In this document: piece by piece, positions 6,307 through 22,222 of the stretch
Numbering within the stretch: position 1 is the first letter of the stretch
How the letters are laid out: each line of letters starts with the position of its first letter
DNA from: an uncultured Bacteroides sp.
Lineage (GTDB): Bacteria; Bacteroidota; Bacteroidia; Bacteroidales; JACABE01
Assembly (NCBI GenBank): GCA_964634005.1
Contig: CAZWKQ010000012.1
Coordinates: forward strand, 13,306 to 77,305
Length of the DNA: 64,000 nt
Direction of reading: 5' to 3'
The notes under the pieces: model-generated
Databases searched by the model: none
The model's input: the letters and a program-made list of their open reading frames with translations, nothing else
What the model was told of the DNA's origin: nothing
Made by a program: the position numbers and the translations under genes

Positions 6307-7248
6307 TTAATAAATCAATTCATCTATTGTTTGTTTGTCGTACATAAGTTGTTTTCTCATATCATCTTTATCGTTGAAATTTTTTAATTCTCGAATCCGT
6401 TTATGAAAAAAAACAGTTGCGGTTTTACCAACCAAACATTGGTCAATATCAAATAAATGCATATCAATACATATATTAGGCTGATTAATTTGAAATTTTG
6501 AAGGAGCATGCCTAATATTTAGCATCCCCTTAAAATAGCATTCATTTGAAGTTAAACTGATGGCATAAACTCCCTCGGGAGGAATAAGTTTTATATCCTC
6601 GTCAATAAAAATGCTCATGGTAGGCAAACCAATATTTTTTAATACTTCGCTACCTTTAGTCAATTCCCCGATAATAATGTACTGATGATCGAGATAAGCA
6701 TTGGCTTTTTGAATATCGCCTTCGTGTAATGCTTTTCTTATTTTTGTAGAACTTACAGTTTCATTTTGTATGTCTTGTTCGGGAATTTCTTCCACATCAA
6801 AACCTTGAATCTTCGATAATTCATAAAGCGAGTGATAGTTACCTTCCTTATTATGGCCAAAATAATGGTTAAATCCGACAATAATTTTACGGGCATTTAC
6901 TTTTCCGAGAAGAATATTTTTGACAAAATCAATAGAAGAAGTCTGAGCAAATTCTCTTGTAAAATTAATTATTATCAAATTATCGAGACCTGCTTTACGA
7001 AGGAGTTCAATTTTTTCGCGTTGAGAATTAATAAGCAGAAGGTCTTTACCTTCGGTTTCCGGATATAGAACTCTACGCGGGTGCGGATGAAAAGTAATAA
7101 GAACCGACTCGCCCCCGATTAATTTTGCAGATTTTCGCAATCGGTTTATTATAGCTTTATGTCCTATATGAACTCCATCGAAAGAACCGGTAGTTACAAC
7201 AGCATTTTTTATATCCTTAATATCCTCGATATTTCTGAAAATTCTCAT
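6307..7248 (-). CDS. ribF: RibF-like FAD synthetase with degenerate riboflavin-kinase domain
   Basis: Adenylyltransferase motifs GSFDGVHIGH, FHPHP and VSSTKIR are intact. The C-terminal kinase motifs are altered (PTMS, NIRHAPS, IDMHLFD). Confidence 0.8.
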   Translation of the reverse strand: MRIFRNIEDIKDIKNAVVTTGSFDGVHIGHKAIINRLRKSAKLIGGESVLITFHPHPRRVLYPETEGKDLLLINSQREKIELLRKAGLDNLIIINFTREFAQTSSIDFVKNILLGKVNARKIIVGFNHYFGHNKEGNYHSLYELSKIQGFDVEEIPEQDIQNETVSSTKIRKALHEGDIQKANAYLDHQYIIIGELTKGSEVLKNIGLPTMSIFIDEDIKLIPPEGVYAISLTSNECYFKGMLNIRHAPSKFQINQPNICIDMHLFDIDQCLVGKTATVFFHKRIRELKNFNDKDDMRKQLMYDKQTIDELIY

Positions 7249-7256
7249 ATTTTTTT

Positions 7257-7910
7257 CTATGCGGTTAATTCATTTTTTTTGACAAAGTAGGCAACTTTTT
7301 CTAAAGAAGTAATCATATCGTATTCTTCGAGAAAAATATGAGAAGAAACGTTAACAGGAGATGGAGTGAAATTTAAAATCCCTTTAATTCCTGAAATAAC
7401 AAGGTTTTCGGCAACTTTAGCAGCTTCGGATGCGGGAACAGTAATAATACCTATTGTTATATTTTCTTTTTTAATTATTTCCTGAAGTTTATCGTAAGAA
7501 TAACAATGTACGCCGGCATAAACTCTGTCGACCTTTTCGGGATTTGTATCGAAAGCTGCAACAATTGACAATTTTGTTCTTTTACCTTTAAAATAACTGA
7601 TTATTGCTCTACCCAAATTACCAACACCCACAACGGCAACCTTTTGCCCGTCTTCGCTATCAATAATATCACCAATTAAATCAATTAATGCTTGAACATC
7701 ATACCCTTTTCGCAAGGTTCCCGAATATCCTATAAGCATAATATCCCTACGTACCTGAACAGGGGTTATATGAAGCAAATTGGCTATTTCGTGCGAATAA
7801 ATATGAGTCTTACCATTTGCTGCACATACCAACAAATTTCTGCGGTACTGACTAAGTCTTTCAACTGTTTTATCGGGTAATTTTTTTATTTCTTTCACTT
7901 TTGTTATCAT
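7257..7910 (-). CDS. rex: Redox-sensing transcriptional repressor Rex
   Basis: TVERLSQY, QVRRDI...GY winged helix, Rossmann VGVGNLG, GILNFTP. Confidence 0.95.
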   Translation of the reverse strand: MITKVKEIKKLPDKTVERLSQYRRNLLVCAANGKTHIYSHEIANLLHITPVQVRRDIMLIGYSGTLRKGYDVQALIDLIGDIIDSEDGQKVAVVGVGNLGRAIISYFKGKRTKLSIVAAFDTNPEKVDRVYAGVHCYSYDKLQEIIKKENITIGIITVPASEAAKVAENLVISGIKGILNFTPSPVNVSSHIFLEEYDMITSLEKVAYFVKKNELTA

Positions 7911-7923
7911 TATTTTAAAATAA

Positions 7924-9048
7924 TTAGATATTCTTTGGTAATGTAATTGTAAATACCGACCCTTTTTCAGGTGAACTCGAAACTGTTATATTTCCTTCAT
8001 AAGAATCGATAATTTTCTTAACTATAGATAATCCTAAACCACTTCCTGAAATATTTTTAGTTTTTTGATTTTTAATTCTAACAAACTCATTAAAAAGTTT
8101 CGACATATCGTCTTCAGTCATTCCAATTCCATTATCACTTACCGTAATAGTAATATTTTCTTCTTTTTCTTTGATAAAGCAATCTACTCTGCCACCTTTT
8201 TTGTTATATTTTATAGCATTAGAAATCAAATTATTAAATACAATTTCCATTTCTCTTTCATCAGCATTATAATAAATACAGTCCTTACAATTTAAATAAA
8301 CTTCAACATCATTTTGTATTGCAAAAGGATTCATGGCATCTTTCGATATTTTAGCAATTTCGCATAAATTTATCTGTTTTATCTCTCTGTTTGATACTCC
8401 TGATTCGATTTTTGTAAGGTCGAGCAAATCCATTATTAAAGAACGCATACCGTTAATTCTCTCAATAGAACGTTCGATATTATTTTTATAATCGTCAATA
8501 TTATCGCCGAGTTGTTTTTCCAACATCATTTGTAAATAGCCTTCAATAGCATTCAGCGGAGCTTTCAATTCGTGAGAAAGTACCGAAAGGAATTGAAAAC
8601 GAACTTGTTTGCCGACAGTATTCAATCTTTTGGTCATTCGGCGGAAATAAACCTGTTTGGTTATAGTTTCGATTGATGAACGAAGTTCCTGAGGTGTGAA
8701 TGGTTTGGGAATAAAGTCAAAAGCTCCGTTTTTGGTTGCTTTTACTGCAACGTCTAATGATGCATAAGAAGTAATCATTACAACAAGTATGTCGAGATGA
8801 TTTTTGCTGACATACTCCAAAACCTCCAACCCTTGTATTCCGGGCAGCTTATTATCGAGCAGCATAATATCGGGTAGACCGGTTTTGAGGTATTCTATGG
8901 CATCTTCACCGGTAGGAGCCTCAATTATTTCAAATTTACAGGCCTCATCCATAAAAGGATATGAAACAGAAAAATCACGTAATACGCGCGACACACCCGA
9001 ACGGATTCCGGGTTCGTCGTCTACAACCATTAATTTGATTATTTCCAT
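7924..9048 (-). CDS. Hybrid REC-HisKA-HATPase signalling protein
   Basis: N-terminal receiver (VVDD, LLDNKLP, KPF), then H-box SHELKAPL, NLISNAIKY and GSGLGL. Confidence 0.92.
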   Translation of the reverse strand: MEIIKLMVVDDEPGIRSGVSRVLRDFSVSYPFMDEACKFEIIEAPTGEDAIEYLKTGLPDIMLLDNKLPGIQGLEVLEYVSKNHLDILVVMITSYASLDVAVKATKNGAFDFIPKPFTPQELRSSIETITKQVYFRRMTKRLNTVGKQVRFQFLSVLSHELKAPLNAIEGYLQMMLEKQLGDNIDDYKNNIERSIERINGMRSLIMDLLDLTKIESGVSNREIKQINLCEIAKISKDAMNPFAIQNDVEVYLNCKDCIYYNADEREMEIVFNNLISNAIKYNKKGGRVDCFIKEKEENITITVSDNGIGMTEDDMSKLFNEFVRIKNQKTKNISGSGLGLSIVKKIIDSYEGNITVSSSPEKGSVFTITLPKNI

Positions 9049-9051
9049 TAC

Positions 9052-9435
9052 TTAAATCTTTAACAACTTATTTATTTCTCTTTGTAACTGATCAGAACGT
9101 ATGCCTTTATCCATGTATAAATCAGCCTTTATCCATTTACGTTCTTCTTCCGAATGAACGTCGAAACTCATGCCGGTTTCGGCTGTTACGGCTGTTGCAA
9201 TTATTATGGGTACATCAGGATACTTCCTCTTCATTTTATAACTTAAAACGAAGCCGCTATCTTCATTCTCCATCATCAAATCGAAAATTGCCAAATCGGG
9301 TTTAAACGACTCCAAAAGTTGTTCAGCTTCATATTGACCATCTGCTGTTATTACTTCGAAACCTAATTTTTCTACTTTAAGTTTCATTTGATACAAGTAA
9401 TCCATGTCATCGTCAACAATTAAAACCTTTTTCAT
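9052..9435 (-). CDS. Single-domain response regulator
   Basis: VDDD, FDLMM, TAV, DKG; no output domain. Confidence 0.9.
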   Translation of the reverse strand: MKKVLIVDDDMDYLYQMKLKVEKLGFEVITADGQYEAEQLLESFKPDLAIFDLMMENEDSGFVLSYKMKRKYPDVPIIIATAVTAETGMSFDVHSEEERKWIKADLYMDKGIRSDQLQREINKLLKI

Positions 9436-9472: not shown

Positions 9473-9480
9473 CAAAGTTA
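9473..9480 (-). promoter_or_regulatory. Internal -7 promoter element (TAACTTTG) upstream of the receiver gene
   Basis: TAnnTTTG match overlapping the hydrogenase-kinase stop codon, about 37 nt upstream of the ATG at 9435. Confidence 0.45.
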
Positions 9481-11466
9481 TTCCGACTTATACCTTGGTA
9501 AAGTAATAGTAAATGTGGTTCCAGTCGGGCCTTTTTCTATATCTGTGTTAGATTTAATGTCAACTTTACCTTTATGCATTTTAATGATACCGTAAATTAT
9601 AGGTAATCCTAAGCCTGTGCCTTTTCCAATACCTTTAGTTGTGAAAAAAGGAGTAAAAATTTTCTCCATATTTTCGGGAGCAATACCTGTACCGGTATCG
9701 GAAATTGAAAATATAATATCATCATTTTTCTCGGCAATATTAATATTAATTTCTCCACCATTTTCGGGCATTGCTTCTATTGAGTTTTTAATCAGATTAG
9801 TAATTACTTGTACCATTTGGTCGTAGTCTATCATAGCCATTTTATTCTTAAGTTCCGAATTAAGATTTATGGTAACGTTTTCAGGACATACTACCGATTG
9901 AATGCTACGTTCAAACATATTTTCAATATTAATCTCAGAGTAATTAAGTTGATTTTTCCTTGCAAAATTCAAAAGGCCGGACACTATTTTTTTACATCTG
10001 TCAGTTTGTTCTACAATCAGCTCAAGGTCTTTTCTTATAGGATCATCTGGATTACATTCGTCTTTCAGAATATTGCTGTACATAGTAATAACTCCAAGAG
10101 GATTATTTAGTTCGTGAGCAATTCCGGCAGAAAGCTGTCCCATATGTGCTAATTTTTCCGATTGTTTTAAGGCTAACTGTGCAGAAGCAAGTTTTTCGTT
10201 CGATACAGCCAAATCTTTTATGTATTTATGCAATTTCTCAATTGCATAAGGGAGGCACATTTCTTCTTCGGCAAGTCCTTTTATAATGGCTATAGCATGC
10301 TCATTGCATGAATCATAACCGCAAGCACCACAGTTTAGATGATCTTTTTCACTAAATTTACCCAACGATTTCAAAACTTCTTTTACTTCTTCCCAACTTG
10401 GGTCAGGAATTCTCCTGTCGTTGGCTACAAATGTTTGTGTTAAATCTATATCGCTATATTTTTCTATTTCTTTGAGCCATTCATCATTATCAATATTTTT
10501 GAGTTTTTGCTTAACATAACTACTTACCATAGTACGTCGGGCAAATCTTTTACCATTGGGCGAAGTACCCGGCCCCATAATACATCCTTCGCAACATAAT
10601 AACTCGAGATTATTATAACGTATCAACCCATTTTCAAACTCTTTAATGGCTTCACGAAAATCGACCCTTCCATCGGCAACAATAACATTGCCCTCGTATA
10701 TGTTTTCAGTAACATCAGTAGTTTGCAATAATCCTCTAGAAATCGGGAATATTGCTCCTTTTCCGGCATGAGGCGGATCAAACTCTGACGGAGTTACGTT
10801 TTCGCGTTTTATTCCAGAAATTTTAAACATTTCTCTGAGTTCTCTGAAAGTAAGTACTTCATCTAATTCGTCCGATTCTGCCTTTTTTGCAATACAAGGA
10901 CCAATAAAAACGACTTTTATGTCATTACCATACTTTTTCTTAACAACCCTTGTCATAGCAACCATTGGAGATGCAATAGGAGCAAGATATGGAACAAGAT
11001 CGGGGCTATAATGCTCAACATAAAAAGTAATTGCAGGACAATCGGATGATATTATTCCTTCACTGCCTTTTCTTTTAAATAAATTTGAATATTTTCTTGC
11101 AACCAAATCAGCTCCGAATGAAACCTCTGACACATAATCGAAGCCTAATGCTTTAATCATTCCTACAAGCAGCTTATAATCTTTTATTTCCTCAAATTCG
11201 GCAGGAAAACTTGGAGCCAGTAAAGCTATTTTTTTTGAATCAGATTTTAAAATAGAATAAACTTCGTCAGTTGCTTTCAAAAATGTTTTAGCTTCCTGTA
11301 CACAAACCTTAACGCAATTTCCGCAACCAATACATCTTTTATCGATAACTTCGGCCTGACCATTAACAATTTTAATGGCTTTGACGGGACATTCTCTGAC
11401 ACAAGTATAACAAACCCGACATTTATCGACTATTGTAAAAACCAATTGGTGTTTATGAGCCGGCAT
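9478..11466 (-). CDS. Sensory [FeFe]-hydrogenase fused to histidine kinase (group C, kinase-linked)
   Basis: Two [4Fe-4S] ferredoxin motifs; H-cluster motifs SSDCPA, GPCIAKKAE and ELLCCEGCIMGP; extra FeS domain NCGACGYDSC...MC; HisKA AHELNNPL; HATPase FFTTKGIGKGTGLGL. Confidence 0.9.
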   Translation of the reverse strand: MPAHKHQLVFTIVDKCRVCYTCVRECPVKAIKIVNGQAEVIDKRCIGCGNCVKVCVQEAKTFLKATDEVYSILKSDSKKIALLAPSFPAEFEEIKDYKLLVGMIKALGFDYVSEVSFGADLVARKYSNLFKRKGSEGIISSDCPAITFYVEHYSPDLVPYLAPIASPMVAMTRVVKKKYGNDIKVVFIGPCIAKKAESDELDEVLTFRELREMFKISGIKRENVTPSEFDPPHAGKGAIFPISRGLLQTTDVTENIYEGNVIVADGRVDFREAIKEFENGLIRYNNLELLCCEGCIMGPGTSPNGKRFARRTMVSSYVKQKLKNIDNDEWLKEIEKYSDIDLTQTFVANDRRIPDPSWEEVKEVLKSLGKFSEKDHLNCGACGYDSCNEHAIAIIKGLAEEEMCLPYAIEKLHKYIKDLAVSNEKLASAQLALKQSEKLAHMGQLSAGIAHELNNPLGVITMYSNILKDECNPDDPIRKDLELIVEQTDRCKKIVSGLLNFARKNQLNYSEINIENMFERSIQSVVCPENVTINLNSELKNKMAMIDYDQMVQVITNLIKNSIEAMPENGGEININIAEKNDDIIFSISDTGTGIAPENMEKIFTPFFTTKGIGKGTGLGLPIIYGIIKMHKGKVDIKSNTDIEKGPTGTTFTITLPRYKSE

Positions 11467-11487: not shown

Positions 11488-12249
11488 TTAATTAAAAGCT
11501 CCCTGCAGATAACTTTTTGTTTTTTCCATTTTCGGATTTTCAAAAATCTCATCGGCAGGTCCTTGTTCTACAACTTCACCCATATACATAAAAACAACAT
11601 GATCGGCAATCCTTCTTGCCTGACGGAGAATATGAGTAACTAAAACAATAGTATATTGCTGTTTCAATTCAACAAATTTCTTTTCAATAACTTCGCTCGA
11701 AATAGGATCTAAAGCTGAAGTCGGTTCGTCGGCAAGGATAATCTCGGGATCGACAGCCAAACCACGTGCAAGGCACAAACGCTGCTGCTGTCCTATTGAC
11801 AGTTTGGAAGCAGGTTCGTGAAGTCTGTCATGAACTTCATCCCAAAGACTTACAATTTTCAAATAGTTTTCAACTCTTGCACTTAAAGCTTTTTTGTTTC
11901 TTCTTCCGCTAATTTTCAATCCGTAAGCAACATTATTAAAAATATTCATCGGCAAGGGATATGGTCTTTGCGAAAGCAATCCCATCTTCTTTCTTATCTC
12001 AGTTACATCGGTTTTTGTATTTAAAATATCTTCATTGTCAATCAAAATATTTCCGCTTATTTTAGCATCGTGATACAAATCGGTCAATCGGTTAAGACAT
12101 TTTAAAAGCGTAGTTTTTCCGCAACCTGATGGACCTAATATAACTGTAAGCTTATTCTCAGGAATTTCTATATTAATATTTTTCAGAATATGTTGTTTCC
12201 CTATGAAAAAATTTAGGTTATCGATTTTTATTTTAGCGTTGCTTGTCAT
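11488..12249 (-). CDS. pstB: Phosphate ABC transporter ATP-binding protein
   Basis: Walker A GPSGCGKT, LSIGQQQRLC, ADEPTSALDP. Start reassigned to the ATG at 12249, just after the pstA stop. Confidence 0.93.
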   Translation of the reverse strand: MTSNAKIKIDNLNFFIGKQHILKNINIEIPENKLTVILGPSGCGKTTLLKCLNRLTDLYHDAKISGNILIDNEDILNTKTDVTEIRKKMGLLSQRPYPLPMNIFNNVAYGLKISGRRNKKALSARVENYLKIVSLWDEVHDRLHEPASKLSIGQQQRLCLARGLAVDPEIILADEPTSALDPISSEVIEKKFVELKQQYTIVLVTHILRQARRIADHVVFMYMGEVVEQGPADEIFENPKMEKTKSYLQGAFN

Positions 12250-12250
12250 G

Positions 12251-13099
12251 TTATTGTATTCTGTTTTTATAATATTTTTTTGATAATGCTCTTGAAAATA
12301 CACTAATAATCAGTATTATAATAGTTAAAATAGCTGCACTGGCATAAGCACGGTTTTGAACTTCAGGTACAGGCGAACTGAGTTGGAAAAAGATAGATAA
12401 AGGCAGAGTAGCAGCAGGTTCGAGCAAAGAAGTCGGAATATTATCGGTATATCCTGCAGTAAACAGCACTGATGCTGCATCTCCAATCGCACGTCCGAAT
12501 GAAAGTAATATTGCAGTTACTATTCCCGAAAACGACTGAATAAGAACTACTCTGAACGAAGTTTCTGTTTTTGTTGAACCTAACGAAAAAGCTGCTTCGA
12601 GTAAGCCAACAGGAGTTGTTTTCAGAACTTCGTCACAAGCCCTTATCATTATTGGTAAAACAAACAAAGTAACAGTGATAATACCAGCCAATAACGAAGT
12701 TTTTATTCCCAGAAAAACCATTAATCCAAAACCAAAAGCTCCATAAACTATTGAAGGAACACCCCATATTAAATCGAGTAAAAACCTGAAAAAGTTTAAA
12801 AAGCGTTTGTATTTTATTAGATAAACATTCATAAATAAGGCTACAGGAACGCCTATAACAGTAGCAAGAAAAGTCGCTCCGACTGAAAGATATAATGAAC
12901 CTATTATTGCATTGAGTACACCGCCTTGTTTACCGTAATAATAGCCACCTTGAGGCTTCTGAGTAAGCATTTCCCATGAAAGCGAACTTAATCCCTTTTT
13001 GAAAATACTATAAATGATTAAAAGCAATACAAATAGTATAATCAAATTGCTAAACAACATTAAACCCCTGAAAAAATACTCTTCAATCTTTTTTAACAT
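12251..13099 (-). CDS. pstA: Phosphate ABC transporter permease
   Basis: GVPSIVYG, EAAFSLGST, SFGRAIGD, ATLP. Confidence 0.92.
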   Translation of the reverse strand: MLKKIEEYFFRGLMLFSNLIILFVLLLIIYSIFKKGLSSLSWEMLTQKPQGGYYYGKQGGVLNAIIGSLYLSVGATFLATVIGVPVALFMNVYLIKYKRFLNFFRFLLDLIWGVPSIVYGAFGFGLMVFLGIKTSLLAGIITVTLFVLPIMIRACDEVLKTTPVGLLEAAFSLGSTKTETSFRVVLIQSFSGIVTAILLSFGRAIGDAASVLFTAGYTDNIPTSLLEPAATLPLSIFFQLSSPVPEVQNRAYASAAILTIIILIISVFSRALSKKYYKNRIQ

Positions 13100-13107
13100 C
13101 TCTAAAA

Positions 13108-14004
13108 TCAGTATTTATCGTATCTAATTATAATCATTCTCATTATAGCATTAAAAAACATAACAACTACAAACAAAATTAAAGCAGCAAACATAAGAGC
13201 AGCATCATAATGTGGAATAGATAACATTTCCCCATAGTTATTGGCAATCAAAGCAGGTAATGGATAACCACCGTCAAAAACATTTTTCGGAATTTGGACA
13301 ATATTTCCAACTACCATAAGTACTGCTATTGTCTCTCCAAATGCACGCGCGAAGCCGAAACCAATAGCAGCCATAATTCCGGGCAATGCCTTTTTAACGA
13401 GAACAAACTTAATCGTTTGCCATTTAGTTGCACCCAATGATAATGAAGCTTCTGTCAACTCTATCGGTATTGCTCTGAAAATTTCAATGAGAATATTCAG
13501 AATAAACGGTATAATCATTACCGCTAAAACCAAACCCCCTGCTAATATACTGTACCCCATGGTATTTGCTCCAAAAACAGGTGCTATAACGTTCGAGATA
13601 AATGGGACTATTACTATTACACCCCATACACCATAAACAACCGATGGAATACCGGCCAATATATCTATTACGGGATGAATTATCTTTAAATAAAACTTTT
13701 TTGAATACTGTGTTATTGAAAGAGCAGCGAAAATGCATATAGGAGCCGAAATTACCATTGCCAAAGCAGTAACCCATACCGAACCCATAATAAACGGGAA
13801 AAAGCCAAACTCTTGACTGCTCGGACGCCATACTTTTGAAAACAATAATTTCCCTAACGAATTATCTCTAAATAACATATCAGATTTATAATACAATCCG
13901 GCTCCAAGAATAAATGGCATCAACAACACCACTAATGATGCTATAACCATCCATGCAGTACTTATTCTGTTTTTAGTTTTTCTGTTATAAAATAATACTA
14001 TCAT
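13108..14004 (-). CDS. pstC: Phosphate ABC transporter permease
   Basis: LAGIPSVVYG, EASLSLGATKWQT, RAFGETIAV. Confidence 0.93.
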   Translation of the reverse strand: MIVLFYNRKTKNRISTAWMVIASLVVLLMPFILGAGLYYKSDMLFRDNSLGKLLFSKVWRPSSQEFGFFPFIMGSVWVTALAMVISAPICIFAALSITQYSKKFYLKIIHPVIDILAGIPSVVYGVWGVIVIVPFISNVIAPVFGANTMGYSILAGGLVLAVMIIPFILNILIEIFRAIPIELTEASLSLGATKWQTIKFVLVKKALPGIMAAIGFGFARAFGETIAVLMVVGNIVQIPKNVFDGGYPLPALIANNYGEMLSIPHYDAALMFAALILFVVVMFFNAIMRMIIIRYDKY

Positions 14005-14044
14005 TAATACTTATTAGCTGATAATTAGTAATTTATGTTAACAT

Positions 14045-15034
14045 TTATTTTAATTTTTCAATTTCACTTTTCACTCTTTCATCAGAAAGTTTAACATAAC
14101 CTGCCTCATTAACATATTTTTGTCCGTCAGTCAATACCCATAAAATAAAGTTTCTTACGAGCGATTTCTTTGGAGTTCCCTGAGAAACAAAATACAAAGC
14201 CCTTGAAGGCGGAGACGGATAAACTCCATCTCTGATGGCATTCATTATATCATCAAGAGTTTCATAAACCATTTCTTCTTTATCAATTTTGCCGTTTGAA
14301 TTTATATCAATCGGAACTACATCAATACCTTGATATTTCTTACGTGTATTAATGTCATAAACATAGGCAATATTGTTAAACCCTATACCATTTATATCTT
14401 TTCTTACAGCATCGGCTACACCCGGATCTCCATTTACTCCTATACCTTTAATATCTTCTTGTTTTTTATTTTTTAAAAACTTTGCCCACATTTCGGCAGC
14501 TCCGCAAGCATCAGATCTGGTATAAACATTTATTGGTGAGTTATTTGTAGTTTTATACAACCAACCCCATTTTCTGTAATTTCCTGTAATAAATATCTCA
14601 TAAAAATCATTTTGCTTTAATCCTTTTTCTTTCAAATCTTTCATTATTGGATTTTTTTCATTTACCGTAGCTAAAACAGCATCTTTTGCAACAGCAACAA
14701 ACCAAGCACCTTTTTGCTTTTCTTCATCGCTGATTTCTTTTGAAAACATCCCTAAATCGACCATTTCCGAAAGTGCATCTGTCATTCCTTTTCCGGCTCC
14801 ACCGGCAGATACATTGATTGTAACTTTAGGATGTAGTTTCTGATATTCCTCAGCCCACCTGACTGTCAATGGATAAAGAGCAAATGCTCCCGAAATACTT
14901 ATAGTACCCGATAAACTATCTTTGCCGTCAGTTGATTTATTTGAGCCATTATTGCACGAAAATAACGACATCGACAAAATCAATGTTACTAAAGTAAGCA
15001 CATTTAATGTTTGTTTGATACAATTGGTTTTCAT
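14045..15034 (-). CDS. pstS: Phosphate ABC transporter substrate-binding lipoprotein
   Basis: Lipobox LFSC; SGAFALYP, GGAGKG, YTRSDACG, YP...R.LY. Confidence 0.9.
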   Translation of the reverse strand: MKTNCIKQTLNVLTLVTLILSMSLFSCNNGSNKSTDGKDSLSGTISISGAFALYPLTVRWAEEYQKLHPKVTINVSAGGAGKGMTDALSEMVDLGMFSKEISDEEKQKGAWFVAVAKDAVLATVNEKNPIMKDLKEKGLKQNDFYEIFITGNYRKWGWLYKTTNNSPINVYTRSDACGAAEMWAKFLKNKKQEDIKGIGVNGDPGVADAVRKDINGIGFNNIAYVYDINTRKKYQGIDVVPIDINSNGKIDKEEMVYETLDDIMNAIRDGVYPSPPSRALYFVSQGTPKKSLVRNFILWVLTDGQKYVNEAGYVKLSDERVKSEIEKLK

Positions 15035-15085
15035 TTTATTTATCTTTTTATTTTTTATAATTATTTAACTTATTATTTTTCAATA

Positions 15086-16804
15086 TTATAAAACCTCTCT
15101 TCTTCTAAAATCAGTATATAACATATTTTTGTTGTTTTCTGAAATGTTGAAAAAATTTTGATAAATTTCGTTTACCAAAGGATTTTTATGAGCAAACTTT
15201 ATCGATTCTTTATCATCAACATCATAAATAGCTTTGATTCGCGATTTTACAGCTTCTTTGTTTGAAGGAATAGGTTGTCCGCCACCATTAATGCAACCAT
15301 TTTGACATGACATTACTTCTACAAAATGTATATCATTCCTGCCATTTTTAATCTCATTTATAATTTTTTCGGCATTAATAATATCGCTGACAACAGCAAC
15401 ACCTATATTATAATTTTGAGTTTTAAGAACAAACTCTTTCCTGTTTTTATTTATGGTTCTTAATTCAGTAATTTTATAATTAACCATATCAGAATTATTG
15501 ATAATATAGTAGAGCGTTCGTAAAACAGCTTCGGTGACTCCACCCGATGCAGCGTACAATTTCCCCGAAGAGCTTCGTGTTCCTAAAGCAGCATCTGATA
15601 ATTCCGATTCGATATTCATTAAATCAATTCCGTAAAGCCTTATTAATCGTGCCAACTCTCTTGTAGTAAGGACTGCATCAACATCGGTTATACCTTTATG
15701 GGTCATTTCTTCACGCTGAGCTTCAAATTTTTTAGCAATGCAAGGCATAATGGAAACATTATATATATTTTCGGGCATAAATGATTTGCTTTCGGAATAA
15801 TAGTTTTTAACAAGCATACCCATTATTTGCTGCGGTGATTTTACTTTTGACAAATTTCCGATCATTTCAGGGTGAGTTTGCTCAACATATTTAACCCAAG
15901 CAGGACAGCAACTTGTGAATAAAGGTAAGTTTTCGCCCTTATTTATTCGGTTTAACAATTCATTTGCAACTTCAATTGCGTTAATATCGGCACCTAAGCT
16001 TGCATCGAATACTTTGTGAAATCCAATTTTTCGTAATGCAGCATTGAGCATTCCGTTTATATCTTTACCTGCTTTGATTCCGAATTCTTCGGCAAGTGAT
16101 ACTGTAATAGAGGGGGAATAACTTATTACAACATGTTTATTGGGATTATTTAATGAATCTATTGTTTCAGGTAAATGATCTCTTTCGTAAAGAGCACCAG
16201 TAGGGCAAACCATAATACACTGACCGCAATTTATGCAACTCGATAGATTGATTCCTTTTTCACAAGCAGTAGTAATTTCGCAATATTTGCCTTTCTTAAT
16301 GAAATCAATAGCAGTAACTCCGACAATTTCCTCACATACCCTGACACACCTTCCGCACAAAATGCACTTTTTGGGGTCACGTATCATGCATGAGCCTGAC
16401 CTGTCGGCTTTTTGATTACCTTTTCTTCCGCTTATTCTTCTTTCAAGAACATTTAATTCAATGGCTAACTTTTGTAATTCGCAATTGCCGTTACGTTCAC
16501 AATAAAGACAATCGTCAGGATGATTTGATAACAAAAGTTCAACAATAGTTTTTCGGGCTTTAATTACTTTGGGAGAATGTGTTTTTATCCTCATCCATTC
16601 TTCTACCTGTTGAGAACAACTTGGTACAAGATTCTCATATCCTTCAACTTCTACTGCACAAATTCTACAGGCACCGGATGGAGTAAGGTCTTCCATAAAA
16701 CATAGTGTAGGAACTTTTATTCCATTCCTGTTTAAAGCCATTAAAATAGTTTCACCTTTTTTGGCTTTAATTATTTTATTATTTACTTCTATATCAAATA
16801 CCAT
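15086..16804 (-). CDS. hydA: Group A [FeFe]-hydrogenase H-cluster subunit (HydA/HndD-like), divergent
   Basis: [2Fe-2S], His-ligated [4Fe-4S] (HPDDCLYC...C) and two [4Fe-4S] F-clusters; H-cluster motifs TSCCPAW, MPCIAKKFE and EVMSCQNGCINGGGQP. Confidence 0.92.
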   Translation of the reverse strand: MVFDIEVNNKIIKAKKGETILMALNRNGIKVPTLCFMEDLTPSGACRICAVEVEGYENLVPSCSQQVEEWMRIKTHSPKVIKARKTIVELLLSNHPDDCLYCERNGNCELQKLAIELNVLERRISGRKGNQKADRSGSCMIRDPKKCILCGRCVRVCEEIVGVTAIDFIKKGKYCEITTACEKGINLSSCINCGQCIMVCPTGALYERDHLPETIDSLNNPNKHVVISYSPSITVSLAEEFGIKAGKDINGMLNAALRKIGFHKVFDASLGADINAIEVANELLNRINKGENLPLFTSCCPAWVKYVEQTHPEMIGNLSKVKSPQQIMGMLVKNYYSESKSFMPENIYNVSIMPCIAKKFEAQREEMTHKGITDVDAVLTTRELARLIRLYGIDLMNIESELSDAALGTRSSSGKLYAASGGVTEAVLRTLYYIINNSDMVNYKITELRTINKNRKEFVLKTQNYNIGVAVVSDIINAEKIINEIKNGRNDIHFVEVMSCQNGCINGGGQPIPSNKEAVKSRIKAIYDVDDKESIKFAHKNPLVNEIYQNFFNISENNKNMLYTDFRRREVL

Positions 16805-16829: not shown

Positions 16830-18773
16830 TTATTTAATATAAATTGCACTGAATTTACATGTTTCGAAACATATACCACAACCTATACATTTGCTTTCGA
16901 CAATAAAGTGAGGATATTTAACAGTTCCAATAATAGCATTAACCGGACATTTTCGCATACAAGCATTGCAGCCGGTACATTTTTCTACATCTATATAAAA
17001 AGTTCTTAATTCTTTACAAACACCTGCCCTGCATTTTCTATCGAAGATATGTTCTTCATATTCATCTCTAAACCACTTAAGTGAACTTAAAAAAGTATTA
17101 GCTGCATTTTTTCCTAAACCGCAAAGTGATGTATCTTTAATAACATCGGCAATATTTTCGAGTTGCATTACGCCTTTAAATCTGTCTAAGGTTTGATGTG
17201 AAGTTTCATCTTTAGGAATTTTAGTAATCTTTTCGATTATCTCATACATTCGTTGAGTTCCTTCACGACAGGGAATACACTTTCCACAACTTTCGTGTTG
17301 TATGAAATTTAAGTAAAACTTAGTCAAATCAACCATACAGGTATCTTCATCCAAAACAACAATACCTCCCGAACCCATGAAAGTTCCGGCATTCTTCAAT
17401 TCATCATAATCTATCGTTAAATTAAGATTTTGTTCAGTAATAAAACTACCTGCCGGACCTCCTAACTGTATTGCTTTAAATTTCTTATTATTTTTTAGTC
17501 CCCCTCCTATATTTTCAACAATTTCTGCCAATGTCTTACCCATTTCAACTTCTATCAATCCGTGATTTGCAATTTTTCCGGAAAGAGAAAGAATTTTGGT
17601 TCCTTTGCTGTTTTGTGTACCAATATTTGTAAACCATACAGGACCATTATTAATAATATTCGGAACATTTAGCAAAGTTTCCACATTATTTACAACTGTA
17701 GGCTTACCAAACAGTCCTTTTTCAGCGGGATATGGAGGCCTTGTTCTTGGCATTCCTCTTCTGCCTTCAATACTGCTCAACATAGCTGTTTCTTCCCCAC
17801 AAACAAATGCCCCCGGAGCTTTTTTTATAATTAAATCAAGATTAAATCCGCTATCGAGAATATTTTCACCTATTAATCCCAAATTTCTCGCTTGATTAAC
17901 AGCATTTTTAAGTCTTTCATAGGCTAAAATATTGTCGGAGCGAATATAAACATAAGCTTTGCTTGCACCAATTGCATAAGAGGCAATTGCTATACCCTCG
18001 ATTAATTTATGAGGATTACTTTCAATTAATATTTTCTCCATAAAAGAACCGGGGTCACTTTCATTCGAATTACATATCAAATATCTCTGGTCGGAAGCGG
18101 TTTCGTGTGCCAATTTCCATTTTTGACCCGTCGGGAAACCTGAACCTCCCCTACCCCTTAAGCCACTTTTACTTACAATACGACATACTTCATCAGATGT
18201 ATAATGATAAATCGATTTTACATAAGCTCTGTAACCGCCATTGGCTATAAATTCTTCTATTGATTCTGGATTAATAATACCGTTCAATTCAAGTAAAATT
18301 CTTTTTTGACCGGAGAAAAAAGGTAAATTTTCAATATTATTAATATTGTCCCACTTCTGAAGTTTTTTTTGATTATATTGTCCTATAACATTATCTGAAA
18401 CAATGTTGTTATTAAAAACACCGTCTAATATATTCGTAACCGATTCCGCATCGACATTTTTGAATGATATTCTGCATAATCCCGGCATCTGAACATCCAT
18501 AACAGGCTCTAAATGGCAAGCACCTATACACCCTACACTCACAACTTCGGCATCTATTTTCTTCTCTTTAAGATAAACATTTACGGCCTCTTTCGTTTTT
18601 AAAGCTCCGGCAGCTATACCGCAAGACGAGGTGCCTATATAAATTACAGGTTTTCTTACCGTTTCACGTTTAAGTTGTTTTATCATCTCATCCGCTTCTT
18701 TGCCGGCAGATGTTGTATCGTTTTGTAACACATTTTTAGTTAAAAACTTAATAATATTCTCCATAAAAATCAT
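16830..18773 (-). CDS. hydB: NuoF-like flavin/NADH subunit (HydB/HndC)
   Basis: Thioredoxin-like [2Fe-2S] N-terminus, GLRGRGGSGFPTG, GAFVCGEETA, CGKCIPCREG, LCGLG, two C-terminal [4Fe-4S] motifs. Confidence 0.92.
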   Translation of the reverse strand: MIFMENIIKFLTKNVLQNDTTSAGKEADEMIKQLKRETVRKPVIYIGTSSCGIAAGALKTKEAVNVYLKEKKIDAEVVSVGCIGACHLEPVMDVQMPGLCRISFKNVDAESVTNILDGVFNNNIVSDNVIGQYNQKKLQKWDNINNIENLPFFSGQKRILLELNGIINPESIEEFIANGGYRAYVKSIYHYTSDEVCRIVSKSGLRGRGGSGFPTGQKWKLAHETASDQRYLICNSNESDPGSFMEKILIESNPHKLIEGIAIASYAIGASKAYVYIRSDNILAYERLKNAVNQARNLGLIGENILDSGFNLDLIIKKAPGAFVCGEETAMLSSIEGRRGMPRTRPPYPAEKGLFGKPTVVNNVETLLNVPNIINNGPVWFTNIGTQNSKGTKILSLSGKIANHGLIEVEMGKTLAEIVENIGGGLKNNKKFKAIQLGGPAGSFITEQNLNLTIDYDELKNAGTFMGSGGIVVLDEDTCMVDLTKFYLNFIQHESCGKCIPCREGTQRMYEIIEKITKIPKDETSHQTLDRFKGVMQLENIADVIKDTSLCGLGKNAANTFLSSLKWFRDEYEEHIFDRKCRAGVCKELRTFYIDVEKCTGCNACMRKCPVNAIIGTVKYPHFIVESKCIGCGICFETCKFSAIYIK

Positions 18774-18779: not shown

Positions 18780-19238
18780 TTATTGATTCTTTAAACTATC
18801 TATCAGCTCACGAATATCTCCAATTTTAACATTAGTATATGTATGGCCGTTTACTTCAATCACAGGCGATAAGCCACACGAACCCAAGCAACTGACCTGT
18901 TCGATACTAAACTGACCATCTCTGGTTGTTTGTCCGGCACTTATTTTTAGCTCCTTTTCCAACTCTTTTAAAATTACCGACGATTCGTTTAAATGACATA
19001 CCGTTCCATTACATATTTTAATGTGAAATTTACCGTTAGGTTTAAATTTTAAATTATTATAAAACGAAGCAATTCCATATACTTTCGATGATGCCAGATT
19101 AAAATACCTGCTGATTACCGAAATAGACTCTTCGGATAAATAACCCTCTTGCTCTTGAATTTCTGTCATTAAATCGATTAATCCACTTCTATCATCAGGT
19201 TTATACTTTCTTAATATCTCTTCAAAATTTATTCCCAT
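18780..19238 (-). CDS. hydC: NuoE-like [2Fe-2S] subunit (HydC/HndA)
   Basis: KVYGIASFY, ICNGTVCH, SCLGSCGLSP. Confidence 0.92.
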   Translation of the reverse strand: MGINFEEILRKYKPDDRSGLIDLMTEIQEQEGYLSEESISVISRYFNLASSKVYGIASFYNNLKFKPNGKFHIKICNGTVCHLNESSVILKELEKELKISAGQTTRDGQFSIEQVSCLGSCGLSPVIEVNGHTYTNVKIGDIRELIDSLKNQ

Positions 19239-19390: not shown

Positions 19391-22222
19391 CTAAATCAAT
19401 CTGTTACATATTTCTGAATATTCGCAATATTTGCAATTGTCTTCGTTCGAGGTTTGAGTGAAAGGCAATTTTTTATCAAAAATCTCAGAAATTAAGCTTA
19501 CAAGCAAATTTTCAAATTCTACGATATTATTATGATCGACTTCTTGTTTATTTATTTTCAGACTAATAAGTCCTTCTGAAGGCTTTATTAGTGAAATTAT
19601 TCCTGCTTCCCAATTATATTTCTTTAATTCGGGAAATTGCTTATTTAAAAGTAAATAATAAAACAACAATTGAAAAGCATACGAATACTTTTTATCTTCT
19701 GTAACTTTTTCTATATCCGACACTTGAACGTTTTCTTTATTTATACTTCCTGATTTATAATCAATTATTCTTAAAGTGCCATCAATTAAGTCAATTCTAT
19801 CAATATTACCTTTTAAATTAACCGTAATTTCTTTATTTTCAATAATTAAATTTAAATTATTTAATATTTCTTGCTCGAGAAACAATATTTTAAGAAACTT
19901 ATTCTCATTCTCCAACTTTTTTATACTAGTTTTTTCGTTGTACAATAACTTTTTAATCCATGATTTTATTAATTCGTAAATCAGAAAGTTTAAACCATAA
20001 TCTATAGTTCCACCGCTATATAACTTATCAAATGCTTTGTTTAGAGTGAGAGCCAATTTATTGCTTATTTCATCAATATCTCGGACTGAGATAGTTTTTC
20101 CAACAAACGGATAATATAACTCTTTCAAAGTATCATGAATTATATTTCCCTTGGTATTATCCATAATATTTTCTTCGATAGTATCAGGAACATCAAGATT
20201 AACAATATATTTGAAATAAAATTTCAATTTACAATTGATGTAAGTGTTGAGCAATGTTGCCGAAAAACCTTTATTAGCCAATAAAAAAATCTTTTCAATG
20301 ATTTCATCATTTTTTTCAATAATTATACCATTGATATTTTCAGATTTATAACTTGTGATATTAACTAATCTTTCTCTTATAACAATATTTGAATTTATTT
20401 TAGGCAACTCATATTTCAATTGATAAATAAATCTGCTTTTATCGCCGCCCGAAAATTCATCAGGTTCTGTATTGTACAATATCTTTATATTTCCAGCTCT
20501 TTGAATAAGACGATAAAAATGATAAGCAAAAACAGCATCTTTCTCAATAATGGCGGCAATTCCGAATTTATTTTTTATACTCAATGGGATAAGAGAGTTG
20601 TTTTTGTTCGATTTTGGGATAATACCTTCATTAACAGACAATAAAATAACATTTTTAAAATCAAGCAAACGGGTTTCAAGAACTCCCATTATTTGCAACC
20701 CACTCAAAGGTTCGCCATAAAAAGACAGAGTTTCAGTATTTGCCTGTCTTTTGAATAATTTTCTTAAAACTATTATATTAATATAACTTGCATTTAAATC
20801 AATATTATTGATTATCTGATGAAATATTTCGGAGAAACCAAATAAGAATTCATTATTTAATTCATACTTCATTAAAATCTCATTTCCTTTCAGATAATCG
20901 ATAAGGCTAAAAATAATATTTATTAATTGCTTTGTAGTATTTTGAGTATTGAATATTTCCAGTAAATTATTATCCACAAAACCATTCTCAGAAAACAAAA
21001 CCAAAATATCGTTGTAATTGTAAAAAGTTTGATTAGTATTAGAGATTTTATCAATAATATTCTGAGTATCAAATGCAATTTTAAAATAACTGTGTTTTAA
21101 TATTTTTAAAAGATCGATATAAAATATAGTTCGGAAATGATTGTTTATATTAGAAAATCGGCATTGATTTTCGTGCAAAAGAAGAATACTGTCGAAAAGA
21201 TCGAAAATAGTGGTCTGTCGTAATGGGAATCCCATTGTAACATTGAATTTTCCGATATCTGCCGGCAAAGAGTTTATAACAGGAATAAGTAAATTTTCAT
21301 CGCATAAAACAATTGCCGTTGACTCGAGATTTTTTTCTTTTTCATATATTTCATTTATAATTTCCGGCAAAACTTTTGCTTGCCCTATTTTCATTGGCAC
21401 TCCTATCAAATCGATATTTTTGGCAAGTTCAGCGAAATTGTTTTCGATAAAAAGGCTGTTATTATTTATTAAACCTTTGTTTTTGAGCTTTCTGAAAAAA
21501 AAACCGGCTTCTTGGTTCTTATTTTCGAAATAATATTTATCAATATCCCATATTATTTCTGATTTCAGGTTTTTCAAAAAGTGATTTATTATTTTTTCTT
21601 CCGAAGGTGTTAACGCATTAAATCCGAGGAAAATAAAGCGTTCTGAATTTAAACCGAGACCTATTTTTTCAATATTATCTGCTACAAATCTGTAGTTATA
21701 ACCTTGATAGGCAATCTTGAGATTTGAAATACGCTCTTTTAGTTTTAAATAATAATCTTTTAAAGATTTATAAAAACTCAAATATTCTTTCTGAAAATCA
21801 GTAAGTGGTTTACCGTCTAAATTCCATAATTCAATAGCTTTAGTTTCGGTTATAAAATCAAAAATTCCGTCAATATCTGCCAAGAAAAAGTCAATTTCAT
21901 TAAAATCGGCAATCATCAGTTCCGCTACTCCGATAAATTCATCGAAAGTTCGGTAATTTGTAGGGTTTAGCTCAATATGAATTTTATAAAGTTCATTTAT
22001 TAAAAAAATCTGATTTGCAGGTTTCCTGTCAGAAAGTTCATTCACAAAATCTTCTATAGAATAAAACTTTGGAGACCAAAACGGCTTGTTATAATGGTTT
22101 GCTAGATATTTTTTCAGATACAAGCTTCCTCTTCTGTTTGGAAGAATTATAGTTAACGAATTTGTTTCGGAACCGTAATTTTGAAAAATATAATCGGCAG
22201 TTTTTTCTAAAAAAGTGGTCAT
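19391..22222 (-). CDS. AddB/RexB-like protein with C-terminal PD-(D/E)XK nuclease domain
   Basis: LPNRR, GFNAL, LETRLLDF, CKLKFYF, GNIDRID...IIDYKSG, QL..Y, C-terminal CKYCEYSEIC. Confidence 0.85.
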   Translation of the reverse strand: MTTFLEKTADYIFQNYGSETNSLTIILPNRRGSLYLKKYLANHYNKPFWSPKFYSIEDFVNELSDRKPANQIFLINELYKIHIELNPTNYRTFDEFIGVAELMIADFNEIDFFLADIDGIFDFITETKAIELWNLDGKPLTDFQKEYLSFYKSLKDYYLKLKERISNLKIAYQGYNYRFVADNIEKIGLGLNSERFIFLGFNALTPSEEKIINHFLKNLKSEIIWDIDKYYFENKNQEAGFFFRKLKNKGLINNNSLFIENNFAELAKNIDLIGVPMKIGQAKVLPEIINEIYEKEKNLESTAIVLCDENLLIPVINSLPADIGKFNVTMGFPLRQTTIFDLFDSILLLHENQCRFSNINNHFRTIFYIDLLKILKHSYFKIAFDTQNIIDKISNTNQTFYNYNDILVLFSENGFVDNNLLEIFNTQNTTKQLINIIFSLIDYLKGNEILMKYELNNEFLFGFSEIFHQIINNIDLNASYINIIVLRKLFKRQANTETLSFYGEPLSGLQIMGVLETRLLDFKNVILLSVNEGIIPKSNKNNSLIPLSIKNKFGIAAIIEKDAVFAYHFYRLIQRAGNIKILYNTEPDEFSGGDKSRFIYQLKYELPKINSNIVIRERLVNITSYKSENINGIIIEKNDEIIEKIFLLANKGFSATLLNTYINCKLKFYFKYIVNLDVPDTIEENIMDNTKGNIIHDTLKELYYPFVGKTISVRDIDEISNKLALTLNKAFDKLYSGGTIDYGLNFLIYELIKSWIKKLLYNEKTSIKKLENENKFLKILFLEQEILNNLNLIIENKEITVNLKGNIDRIDLIDGTLRIIDYKSGSINKENVQVSDIEKVTEDKKYSYAFQLLFYYLLLNKQFPELKKYNWEAGIISLIKPSEGLISLKINKQEVDHNNIVEFENLLVSLISEIFDKKLPFTQTSNEDNCKYCEYSEICNRLI

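What the first reader, a model, noticed from the sequence alone, without database searches (positions are those of the whole stretch)
15086..16804. HydA lacks the proton-relay Glu279 (Val instead): possibly a low-activity or sensing HydABC
Seen: the protein aligns residue-for-residue with Clostridium pasteurianum CpI numbering. E282, R286, C299, S319, M353, K358 and all H-cluster Cys motifs are kept, but GADINAIEVANEL has Val279 (GTT, nt 15970-15968). Also F417Y, G418A, A230S and a shortened C-terminus lacking the usual HxLLHT. Established: E279 is a highly conserved proton-transfer residue in group A enzymes, and substitutions strongly reduce activity. Inference: a non-catalytic or slow H2-binding subunit, or one half of a complex with a canonical paralogue.
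Basis: partly seen in the sequence, partly recalled or inferred. Interest (0 to 1): 0.75.

Follow-up and report, generated by a model that had tools for sequence, protein, structure and literature searches.

The report
Hydrogenase clade lacking the proton-relay glutamate
This gene for the hydrogen-converting subunit of a three-part hydrogenase really lacks a glutamate considered essential for feeding protons to the active site, and so do about a hundred related enzymes from Bacteroidota, which makes the group a natural test of how these enzymes move protons.

Summary
ORF 15086..16804 (-) is a 572-aa group A [FeFe]-hydrogenase HydA. It follows hydC and hydB on the same strand. In an ungapped alignment to CpI, Val (GTT, 15970-15968) sits at position 279. 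It is not a sequencing error: near-identical proteins on at least 17 contigs and 34 relatives (74-89% identity, codons GTT/GTA/GTC) all carry Val.

The change is clade-wide. Among 186 relatives, 78 fully canonical ones keep T275, E278, E279, E282, R286, C299, S319, H565 and H569 invariant. In 99 Bacteroidota sequences E279 is V, Q, L, M, I, T, A or S, and H565 is almost always gone. Within the Val279 lineage the H-cluster residues, C299 and E278 stay invariant, while E282, S319, S320, H565 and H569 are among the most variable sites. The classical proton pathway has therefore been abandoned, not damaged.

The "shortened C-terminus" is wrong. The tail is present but reads K559/Y563 in place of H565/H569.

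A dedicated histidine-kinase-linked sensory hydrogenase lies in the same cluster, which argues against HydA being the sensor. My best reading is a working but probably slow HydABC with a non-canonical proton route. Activity is untested. I class it as a new variant of a known kind.

The parts
18780..19238 (-). hydC: NuoE-like thioredoxin-fold [2Fe-2S] subunit (152 aa)
   Evidence: Pfam 2Fe-2S_thioredx, E 5e-46. NCBIfam NuoE family.
16830..18773 (-). hydB: NuoF-like FMN/NAD(H) subunit with an N-terminal extension and C-terminal 2x[4Fe-4S] (647 aa)
   Evidence: Pfam Complex1_51K, NADH_4Fe-4S and 2x Fer4. Full-length matches to NfnB/BfuB, A. woodii HydB, T. kivui HydB and T. maritima HydB, E 1e-163 to 2e-188.
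15086..16804 (-). hydA: H-cluster subunit, M3 architecture, 572 aa
   Evidence: TIGR02512 scores 430.8, above its cut-off of 405.95. The AF2 model has pLDDT 83.9 and TM 0.91 to T. kivui HydA 8a6t_A.
15968..15970 (-). Codon GTT = Val at CpI position 279, in place of the central proton-relay Glu
   Evidence: Invariant Val in 34 relatives, with synonymous codons GTT/GTA/GTC.
15971..15973 (-). Codon GAA = Glu278, retained. In CpI it anchors H569.
   Evidence: E278 is present in 95 of 99 E279-less relatives. Its role is taken from preprint 10.64898/2026.09.22.753672.
15980..15982 (-). Codon AAC = Asn275. It replaces Thr275, which is invariant in canonical relatives, and lies one helix turn before 279 on the same face.
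   Evidence: Residues 269-289 form one helix in the model.
15908..15910 (-). Codon TGC = Cys299, the proton relay next to the adt amine, retained
   Evidence: Invariant in the Val279 lineage, 34/34.
15845..15850 (-). Ser319 kept; Lys at position 320 (Ser/Thr in canonical enzymes)
15551..15556 (-). Tyr417-Ala418 (Phe-Gly in CpI and in canonical relatives)
16115..16117 (-). Ser230 (Ala in CpI and in all canonical relatives)
15116..15130 (-). K559-N-M-L-Y563, which replaces the H565-x-x-x-H569 proton-entry motif of CpI
   Evidence: The function of the motif is taken from the preprint.
11488..15034 (-). pstS/pstC/pstA/pstB-like ABC transporter cassette between hydA and the sensor gene
   Evidence: Present only in the Val279 lineage and its E279 sister P0042.
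9478..11466 (-). Histidine-kinase-linked sensory [FeFe]-hydrogenase-like protein (662 aa)
   Evidence: Pfam Fer4, Fe_hyd_lg_C, FeS, HisKA and HATPase_c. CpI-equivalent residues are E279Y, E282L, C299D, S319A, M353G and M497L. It lies downstream of hydA in most of the 80 related loci.
6307..9435 (-). Response regulator (9052..9435), response-regulator/histidine-kinase hybrid (7924..9048), Rex-like redox repressor (7257..7910) and RibF (6307..7248): the conserved tail of the cluster
   Evidence: Conserved order in related loci.

Best explanation
hydA encodes the H2-activating subunit of an NADH/ferredoxin-linked, bifurcating-type HydABC complex. It belongs to a Bacteroidota lineage that has given up the classical proton pathway of group A [FeFe]-hydrogenases (C299 - water - E279 - S319 - E282 - S320/H569/H565 - solvent).

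Shown here:
- The H-cluster pocket, C299, the accessory Fe-S ligands, and HydB and HydC are intact and under purifying selection.
- Val279 is fixed in this lineage.
- The outer pathway residues are free to vary.

Inferred:
- The enzyme still turns over H2. Protons leave C299 by another route, most simply a water chain in a remodelled cavity lined by N275, S297, S298 and S319.
- Maximal rates are probably far below those of CpI-type enzymes.
- A slow proton step may be tolerable because turnover of a confurcating HydABC may be limited by the flavin and electron-gating steps (my own reasoning; no rates were retrieved or measured here).
- Expression is plausibly controlled by the adjacent H2-sensor kinase and Rex.
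- F417Y may in addition slow gas access.
For: HydABC identity.

Clade-wide loss:
- 99 of 186 relatives lack E279 (V37, Q25, L19, M9, I4, T3, A1, S1). H565 is absent from 97% of them. The 78 fully canonical relatives keep every pathway residue.
- Parsimony on the NJ tree gives about 6 E/non-E changes and 19 residue changes at position 279.

Within the Val279 lineage (n=34, mean identity 81%):
- V279, N275, E278, R286, C299, C300, P231, Q325, M353, C355, K358, E361, M497, C499 and C503 are invariant.
- E282 (E19/Q14/D1), S319 (S27/A7), S320, H565 and H569 fall in the 72nd-96th entropy percentile.

Only nine polar residues that are at least 94% conserved in canonical relatives are lost in the Val279 lineage. 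Most lie at or beside pathway positions: 275, 279, 297, 321, 558, 559 and 566.

Selection:
- For the same HydB divergence, HydA is as conserved as in canonical enzymes or more so (0.76 against 0.71 in the 0.7-0.8 HydB identity bin).
- The Val codon varies synonymously.

A dedicated sensor lies in the same cluster.

Expected cost of the change: engineered E279A/Q keep less than 1% activity, S319A 6%, and E282Q is largely inactive (PMC6226526).
Against: No activity data exist for any member of the clade.

No replacement acidic or histidine residue near the H-cluster could be identified from sequence. The structure tool gives no coordinates, so the alternative route is conjecture.

C299 could be kept only to tune the adt amine.

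The pattern of a hydrophobic residue at 279 plus Tyr417 resembles sensory enzymes: TamHydS has F119 at position 279 and TmHydS has Y223 at position 417.

The NJ tree has very short deep branches, so the count of independent losses is approximate.
Confidence: 0.5

Rival explanations
1. A sensor-like or regulatory complex. With the relay cut after C299, the H-cluster binds and splits H2 but barely turns over. HydABC then reports H2 or redox state instead of making or consuming H2.
For: CpI E279A/Q keep less than 1% activity, and pathway variants trap Hhyd under H2. The outer pathway has drifted as in sensors. F417Y is found in the sensory TmHydS as Y223. The B. thetaiotaomicron group A3 HydA alone gave 0.22% of CrHydA1 activity and is barely transcribed, but its residue 279 is unknown.
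Against: A separate histidine-kinase-linked sensor with typical sensory substitutions (C299D, M353G, M497L, no relay residues) lies in the same cluster. Relatives that keep E279 have the same sensor. HydA has no output domain. It keeps C299, M353, M497 and K358. HydB and HydC, with their full cofactor sets, are retained and co-evolve with HydA.
Confidence: 0.17
2. Division of labour with a canonical paralogue. The organism makes or consumes bulk H2 with another, canonical [FeFe]-hydrogenase. The Val279 HydABC fills a specialised low-flux role, for example at high H2 or with a catalytic bias.
For: Two Gln279-type relatives (L048, L052) have a fully canonical HydA (TIMEEGTEL, TSCCP, HHLLHT) with a HydC-like gene 8 kb upstream.
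Against: There is no second catalytic hydrogenase and no HydEFG in the 64-kb window, nor within 10 kb of the twelve Val279 loci. Whole genomes could not be searched.
Confidence: 0.2
3. A register artefact. Glu278, which is invariant, does the job of Glu279, so the pathway is intact.
For: E278 is present in 95 of 99 E279-less sequences.
Against: The alignment is ungapped between the conserved GAD (272-274) and TSCC (297-300) motifs. Residues 269-289 form one continuous helix (pLDDT 93-96), so 278 points about 100 degrees away from the 275/279/282/286 face. Canonical enzymes have both glutamates. In CpI, E278 has its own role, an H-bond to H569 and the P559-G560 backbone. The outer pathway would not drift if the relay were still in use.
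Confidence: 0.05
4. A sequencing or assembly error, or a decaying pseudogene.
For: None found.
Against: Searches show independent contigs and synonymous codon variation. GTT is two changes from either Glu codon. The reading frame is intact, with all Fe-S and H-cluster ligands present. HydA is the most conserved of the three subunits within the lineage.
Confidence: 0.01

Closest known systems
Electron-bifurcating HydABC of Thermoanaerobacter kivui, Acetobacterium woodii and Thermotoga maritima (PDB 8a6t, 7q4v, 7p5h)
   Same: The hydC-hydB-hydA gene set is the same. HydA has the same domain order and fold (E 1.9e-153 and TM 0.91 to 8a6t_A). HydB is full length, with its extra Fe-S domains.
   Different: All three solved enzymes read EE at 278-279 and have E282. 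This protein has V279, N275, S230, Y417, A418, K320, K559 and Y563. It scores 686.8 on NCBIfam NF040763, below the cut-off of 765.
Engineered CpI variants E279A (5la3) and E279Q (6gm0)
   Same: A non-protonatable residue at position 279 in an otherwise catalytic group A scaffold.
   Different: Those are single changes in an optimised enzyme and leave less than 1% activity. Here the change is natural, fixed, and accompanied by changes at 275, 297, 321 and 230 and in the C-terminal tail, with the outer pathway no longer constrained.
Sensory [FeFe]-hydrogenases (TmHydS, group C; TamHydS, group D)
   Same: A hydrophobic residue at position 279 (F119 in TamHydS) and Tyr at position 417 (Y223 in TmHydS).
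   Different: Sensors also replace C299 (Ala), M353, M497 and S319, and carry or neighbour signalling domains. This HydA keeps C299, S319, M353 and M497 and has no signalling domain. The real sensor of this locus is the neighbouring 662-aa protein.
Group B enzymes (CpIII, ToHydA), which lack the S320-H569-E278 'SHE' entry motif
   Same: They lack the His-based proton entry point, and reported activities are 2-10% of CpI (preprint 10.64898/2026.09.22.753672).
   Different: Group B keeps the inner relay, including E279. This protein is group A by sequence and architecture, and it lacks the inner Glu.

Membership tests
Group A [FeFe]-hydrogenase catalytic subunit (M3 type) | H-cluster motifs TSCCP, MPCxxKxxE and ExMxCxxGCxxGGGQP, with all four Cys ligands | tested here: met
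   The motifs read FTSCCPAW, MPCIAKKFE and EVMSCQNGCINGGGQP.
Group A [FeFe]-hydrogenase catalytic subunit (M3 type) | N-terminal [2Fe-2S], His-ligated [4Fe-4S] and 2x[4Fe-4S] domains | tested here: met
   Pfam Fer2_4, NADH-G_4Fe-4S_3 and Fer4. The Cys/His pattern is visible in the translation and invariant in the alignment.
Group A [FeFe]-hydrogenase catalytic subunit (M3 type) | Curated family model TIGR02512 above its cut-off | tested here: met
   430.8 bits against a cut-off of 405.95.
Group A [FeFe]-hydrogenase catalytic subunit (M3 type) | Conserved proton pathway C299-E279-S319-E282-R286 | tested here: not met
   E279 is Val; the other four residues are present.
Group A [FeFe]-hydrogenase catalytic subunit (M3 type) | Proton entry motif S320/H569/E278 plus H565 | tested here: not met
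   K320, Y563 and K559; only E278 is kept.
Group A [FeFe]-hydrogenase catalytic subunit (M3 type) | H2 evolution and oxidation activity | not testable with these tools
   Needs expression, maturation and assay.
Electron-bifurcating HydABC (group A3 / Bfu type) | Adjacent co-oriented NuoE-like HydC and NuoF-like HydB with extra Fe-S domains | tested here: met
   hydC 18780..19238 and hydB 16830..18773, with gaps of 6 and 25 nt.
Electron-bifurcating HydABC (group A3 / Bfu type) | NCBIfam NF040763 (NADH-dependent [FeFe] hydrogenase, group A6) above its cut-off | tested here: not met
   686.8 bits against a cut-off of 765. It is the best-scoring model but falls below threshold.
Electron-bifurcating HydABC (group A3 / Bfu type) | Coupled NADH + ferredoxin dependent H2 turnover | not testable with these tools
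   Biochemical assay needed.
Sensory [FeFe]-hydrogenase (groups C/D, HydS) | Fused or dedicated signalling domain (PAS, histidine kinase, phosphatase) | tested here: not met
   No such domain in HydA. The neighbouring 662-aa protein has HisKA and HATPase_c.
Sensory [FeFe]-hydrogenase (groups C/D, HydS) | C299 replaced, and M353/M497 replaced | tested here: not met
   C299, M353 and M497 (query M498) are kept and invariant in the lineage.
Sensory [FeFe]-hydrogenase (groups C/D, HydS) | Group A proton-pathway residues replaced by non-protonatable ones | tested here: inconclusive
   In this protein only E279, S320, H565 and H569 are replaced. E282, S319 and R286 are kept, but E282 and S319 vary among close relatives.

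The most novel reading that the evidence does not exclude
A whole lineage of group A, bifurcating-type [FeFe]-hydrogenases works without the Glu279 relay. Either it has evolved a different proton route to Cys299, or it shows that a HydABC complex does not need fast proton delivery. This would contradict the working rule that the pathway is conserved throughout groups A and B. It would also mean that many 'group A3' genes counted in environmental surveys are kinetically unlike the model enzymes.
Probability: 0.35. Interest if true: 0.8.

Novelty: new variant of a known kind. Interest (0 to 1): 0.6.

Why it matters
The Glu279 relay is the best-established outer-sphere requirement for fast catalysis in [FeFe]-hydrogenases. 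Recent literature states that the pathway is very conserved in groups A and B.

A natural radiation that keeps the catalytic pocket and Cys299 but has discarded Glu279 and the His entry point offers ready-made material for several questions:
- How do protons reach the H-cluster otherwise?
- How much proton-transfer speed does a bifurcating complex need?
- Do Tyr417 and Ser230 alter gas access or cofactor tuning?

There is also a practical point. Metagenomic surveys score such genes as H2-producing 'group A3' enzymes. If the clade is slow or biased, those inferences for Bacteroidota in sediments and digesters need qualifying.

Tried and rejected
1. Sequencing error or pseudogene: rejected.

2. 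Register shift that lets E278 replace E279: rejected on the ungapped alignment and the helix geometry.

3. Search for a compensating acidic or histidine residue, gained and fixed in the Val279 lineage. Only N275 and S230 lie in segments known to be near the H-cluster. No carboxylate candidate emerged. This is inconclusive, because no model coordinates are available.

4. HydA-specific acceleration as a sign of relaxed selection: not seen. HydA tracks HydB divergence. Only a five-point deficit appears between the two clades.

5. Sensor linkage as a predictor of E279 loss: rejected. Canonical and E279-less HydAs share the same sensor cluster.

6. Promoter and terminator scan of 6000-20000: counts are at shuffle level (67 against 64.6; 10 against 7.1). 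It is uninformative, and the promoter consensus is not suited to Bacteroidota.

7. Two attempts to retrieve relatives of the canonical paralogue failed on time-out. The aim was to find the B. thetaiotaomicron A3 HydA and read its residue 279. The published low activity of that enzyme therefore cannot be tied to E279 status.

8. The literature searches found no paper describing a natural group A clade without E279. The library is incomplete, so this is absence of evidence only.

9. The alternative pathway proposed for TamHydS (E252-E289-S249-D265) was not mapped onto this protein by alignment.
Full report
**Observation**

The ORF at 15086..16804 on the minus strand encodes 572 residues. It has the full M3 architecture of a group A [FeFe]-hydrogenase: Fer2_4, the His-ligated NADH-G 4Fe-4S domain, two ferredoxin-type clusters, Fe_hyd_lg_C and the small-subunit-like tail. 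Its best solved relatives are the HydA subunits of the bifurcating HydABC complexes of T. kivui (E 1.9e-153), A. woodii and T. maritima, followed by CpI.

Between G272 and W303 the alignment to CpI has no gaps, and the numbering coincides. The query reads A-I-E-V-A-N-E-L where CpI reads I-M-E-E-A-T-E-L. The codon at 15970-15968 is GTT. Either Glu codon would need two substitutions to give GTT.

- E278, E282, R286, C299, C300, S319, M353, K358 and the three H-cluster motifs are present.
- A230S, F417Y and G418A are confirmed.
The tail and its Pfam domain are present. The H565-x-x-x-H569 motif reads K559-N-M-L-Y563, and S320 is Lys.

**Not an error**

- The identical protein is called on three contigs.
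- The four members of its 90% cluster differ at 1-9 other positions, occur on at least 17 contigs, and all read IEVANEL.
- Thirty-four relatives at 74-89% identity have Val at this position, encoded by GTT, GTA or GTC.

**Context**

hydA is the third gene of a tight hydC-hydB-hydA unit.

- HydC is a NuoE-like [2Fe-2S] protein.
- HydB is a full-length NuoF-like subunit. It aligns end to end with the B subunits of solved bifurcating enzymes.
- An AlphaFold2 model of HydA (pLDDT 83.9) superposes on T. kivui HydA with TM 0.91 and on CpI with TM 0.89.

Downstream on the same strand lie, in order:

- a pstSCAB-like cassette;
- a 662-aa protein that joins an [FeFe]-hydrogenase domain to HisKA and HATPase_c;
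- a response regulator;
- a response-regulator/kinase hybrid;
- a Rex-like repressor;
- RibF.

At the CpI-equivalent positions the 662-aa protein has Y279, L282, D299, A319, G353 and L497, the pattern of a sensory hydrogenase.

In 80 related loci from species-representative genomes, the order hydC-hydB-hydA-sensor kinase-RR-RR/HK, often followed by Rex and RibF, recurs in most loci where the contig extends far enough. It is found in Bacteroidales, Lentimicrobiaceae, Planctomycetota, Hydrogenedentota and Latescibacteria. The pst cassette is present only in the Val279 lineage and its closest Glu279 relative. The rest of the 64-kb window holds no other catalytic hydrogenase and no maturase genes.

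**The clade**

I aligned 186 non-identical relatives, taken from the top database hits and the genome loci.

- The 78 fully canonical sequences come from several phyla. In them T275, E278, E279, E282, R286, C299, S319, H565, H569, A230 and F417 are all invariant.
- In 99 sequences position 279 is V (37), Q (25), L (19), M (9), I (4), T (3), A or S. All that carry a name are Bacteroidota.
- In this second group H565 is almost always absent (3% keep it), T275 is almost always replaced, and A230 is usually Ser.

On a neighbour-joining tree the E279-less sequences fall in one half of 106 tips. Seven of those tips keep E279. Parsimony gives about six E/non-E changes and 19 residue changes at this site. 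The deep branches are short, so these counts are approximate.

Related sub-lineages go further:

- E279L with C299D;
- Q278 with V/I279 and C299D;
- M279 with C299S and M353A.

Among 141 representatives clustered at 50% identity, 38 lack E279. Most of those also lack C299, M353 or K358. The combination seen here, a complete catalytic pocket without E279, is therefore the unusual one.

**What selection says**

Inside the Val279 lineage mean identity is 81% and median site entropy is 0.19.

- V279, N275, E278, R286, C299 and every H-cluster ligand and second-sphere residue are invariant.
- E282 (E19/Q14/D1), S319 (S27/A7), S320, H565 and H569 lie in the 72nd to 96th percentile of variability.

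In the whole protein only nine polar residues that are at least 94% conserved in canonical relatives are lost in this lineage. Most sit at or beside pathway positions: 275, 279, 297, 321, 558, 559 and 566.

HydA is not decaying. For a given HydB divergence it is as conserved as in canonical enzymes or more so. Within the lineage it is the most conserved of the three subunits.

The simplest reading is that the classical pathway beyond C299 is no longer used, while the H-cluster, C299 and the electron-transfer partners are still needed.

**Mechanism**

From the literature:

- In CpI, E279A and E279Q leave less than 1% activity, E279D 10-30% and S319A 6%. E282Q is largely inactive. C299D stays active (PMC6226526).
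- A September 2026 preprint adds S320, H569 and E278 as a proton entry motif, with H565 at the solvent interface.
- F417Y in the Chlamydomonas enzyme slows CO and O2 inhibition (review PMC11023054). The same Tyr occurs naturally in the sensory TmHydS, where Y223F did not lower activity.

My inference is that this HydABC still converts H2. It exchanges protons from C299 by a different and probably slower route. I suggest this could be tolerable because turnover of a confurcating complex may be limited by the flavin and electron-gating steps; I did not retrieve or measure any rates to support that. The route itself is not identified. N275 is fixed and lies one turn before 279 on the same helix face (helix 269-289). 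It is the only obvious new polar group in that cavity. I put this explanation at 0.5.

**Rivals**

- A sensor-like, nearly non-catalytic complex (0.17) fits the mutant data and the Tyr417 resemblance. It is weakened by the dedicated sensor in the same cluster, by the same sensor being present with canonical HydAs, by the lack of an output domain, and by retention of C299, M353 and M497.
- A specialised partner of a canonical paralogue (0.2) is supported for two Gln279-type relatives, which carry a fully canonical HydA 8 kb upstream. It is untested for the Val279 lineage.
- A register shift to E278 (0.05) is contradicted by the data above.
- A sequencing error (0.01) is likewise contradicted by the data above.

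**Comparison and novelty**

By sequence, architecture, fold and gene context this is a group A, bifurcating-type HydA. It passes TIGR02512 but falls below the cut-off of the NCBIfam 'group A6' model. It fails the pathway criterion that the field treats as conserved in groups A and B. It is not a group C/D sensor.

The literature searches I could run found no description of a natural group A clade without E279.

One published data point may be relevant. The B. thetaiotaomicron group A3 HydA gave 0.22% of CrHydA1 activity and about 4 TPM. I could not obtain its sequence, and searches failed, so no link to E279 can be claimed.

I class the finding as a new variant of a known kind, with interest 0.6.

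Noticed in passing
window 9478..11466 (-): A 662-aa [FeFe]-hydrogenase-like histidine kinase: 2x Fer4, Fe_hyd_lg_C, PF04060 FeS, HisKA and HATPase_c. At CpI positions it has Y279, L282, D299, A319, G353 and L497. It lies downstream of hydA in most of the 80 related loci, across several phyla.
   Followed up: partly
window 11488..15034 (-): A pstS/C/A/B-like ABC transporter cassette is inserted between hydA and the sensor kinase gene. It occurs only in the Val279 lineage and its Glu279 sister (L082). The PstS-like protein scores below the NCBIfam cut-off (129 against 206.6), so the substrate is uncertain.
   Followed up: partly
window 6307..7910 (-): A Rex-like redox-sensing repressor and RibF (FAD synthetase) close the cluster. 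They keep this place in many related loci, which suggests joint NADH/H2 control and a link to flavin supply.
   Followed up: no
L005 5518-6819, L009 3239-4582, L011 5529-6872, L015 5639-7045 (minus strand): Many relatives carry a second 621-aa HydS-like protein upstream of hydC on the opposite strand. It has no kinase domain, has I or C at position 299, G353 and A358, and has a long C-terminal region. The window has a 943-aa PD-(D/E)XK protein (19391..22222) at that place instead.
   Followed up: partly
L048 713-2434 and L052 106-1854: A fully canonical HydA paralogue (about 590 aa, 41% identical, with EE, TSCCP and HHLLHT) and a HydC-like gene lie 8 kb upstream of a Gln279-type HydA in the same cluster.
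   Followed up: partly
related proteins P0059, P0097, P0098, P0120; L035, L036, L046; L041, L044, L063: Natural HydAs combine E279L with C299D, or Q278 and V/I279 with C299D, or M279 with C299S and M353A. These are further steps away from the canonical active-site surroundings within intact hydCBA clusters.
   Followed up: no
canonical relatives in the alignment: Sixteen of 78 canonical relatives read TSCSP (Ser at the position of the cluster ligand C300), as does A. woodii HydA1.
   Followed up: no
window 30366..34706 (-): A single 1446-aa ORF joins an AcrB-type RND pump (ACR_tran, residues 5-1035) to an outer-membrane-factor OEP domain (1077-1253). These are usually separate proteins.
   Followed up: no
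protein P0121 (representative library): A 4122-aa protein with seven separate HydA-like stretches was the top-scoring representative. It may be a concatenated or multi-domain prediction.
   Followed up: no
protein P0122: The closest 50%-identity representative (51% identical, 573 aa, same architecture) has I279, T282, K286, A299, S353 and M358. It is an M3-type protein with a sensor-like or degenerate pocket.
   Followed up: no
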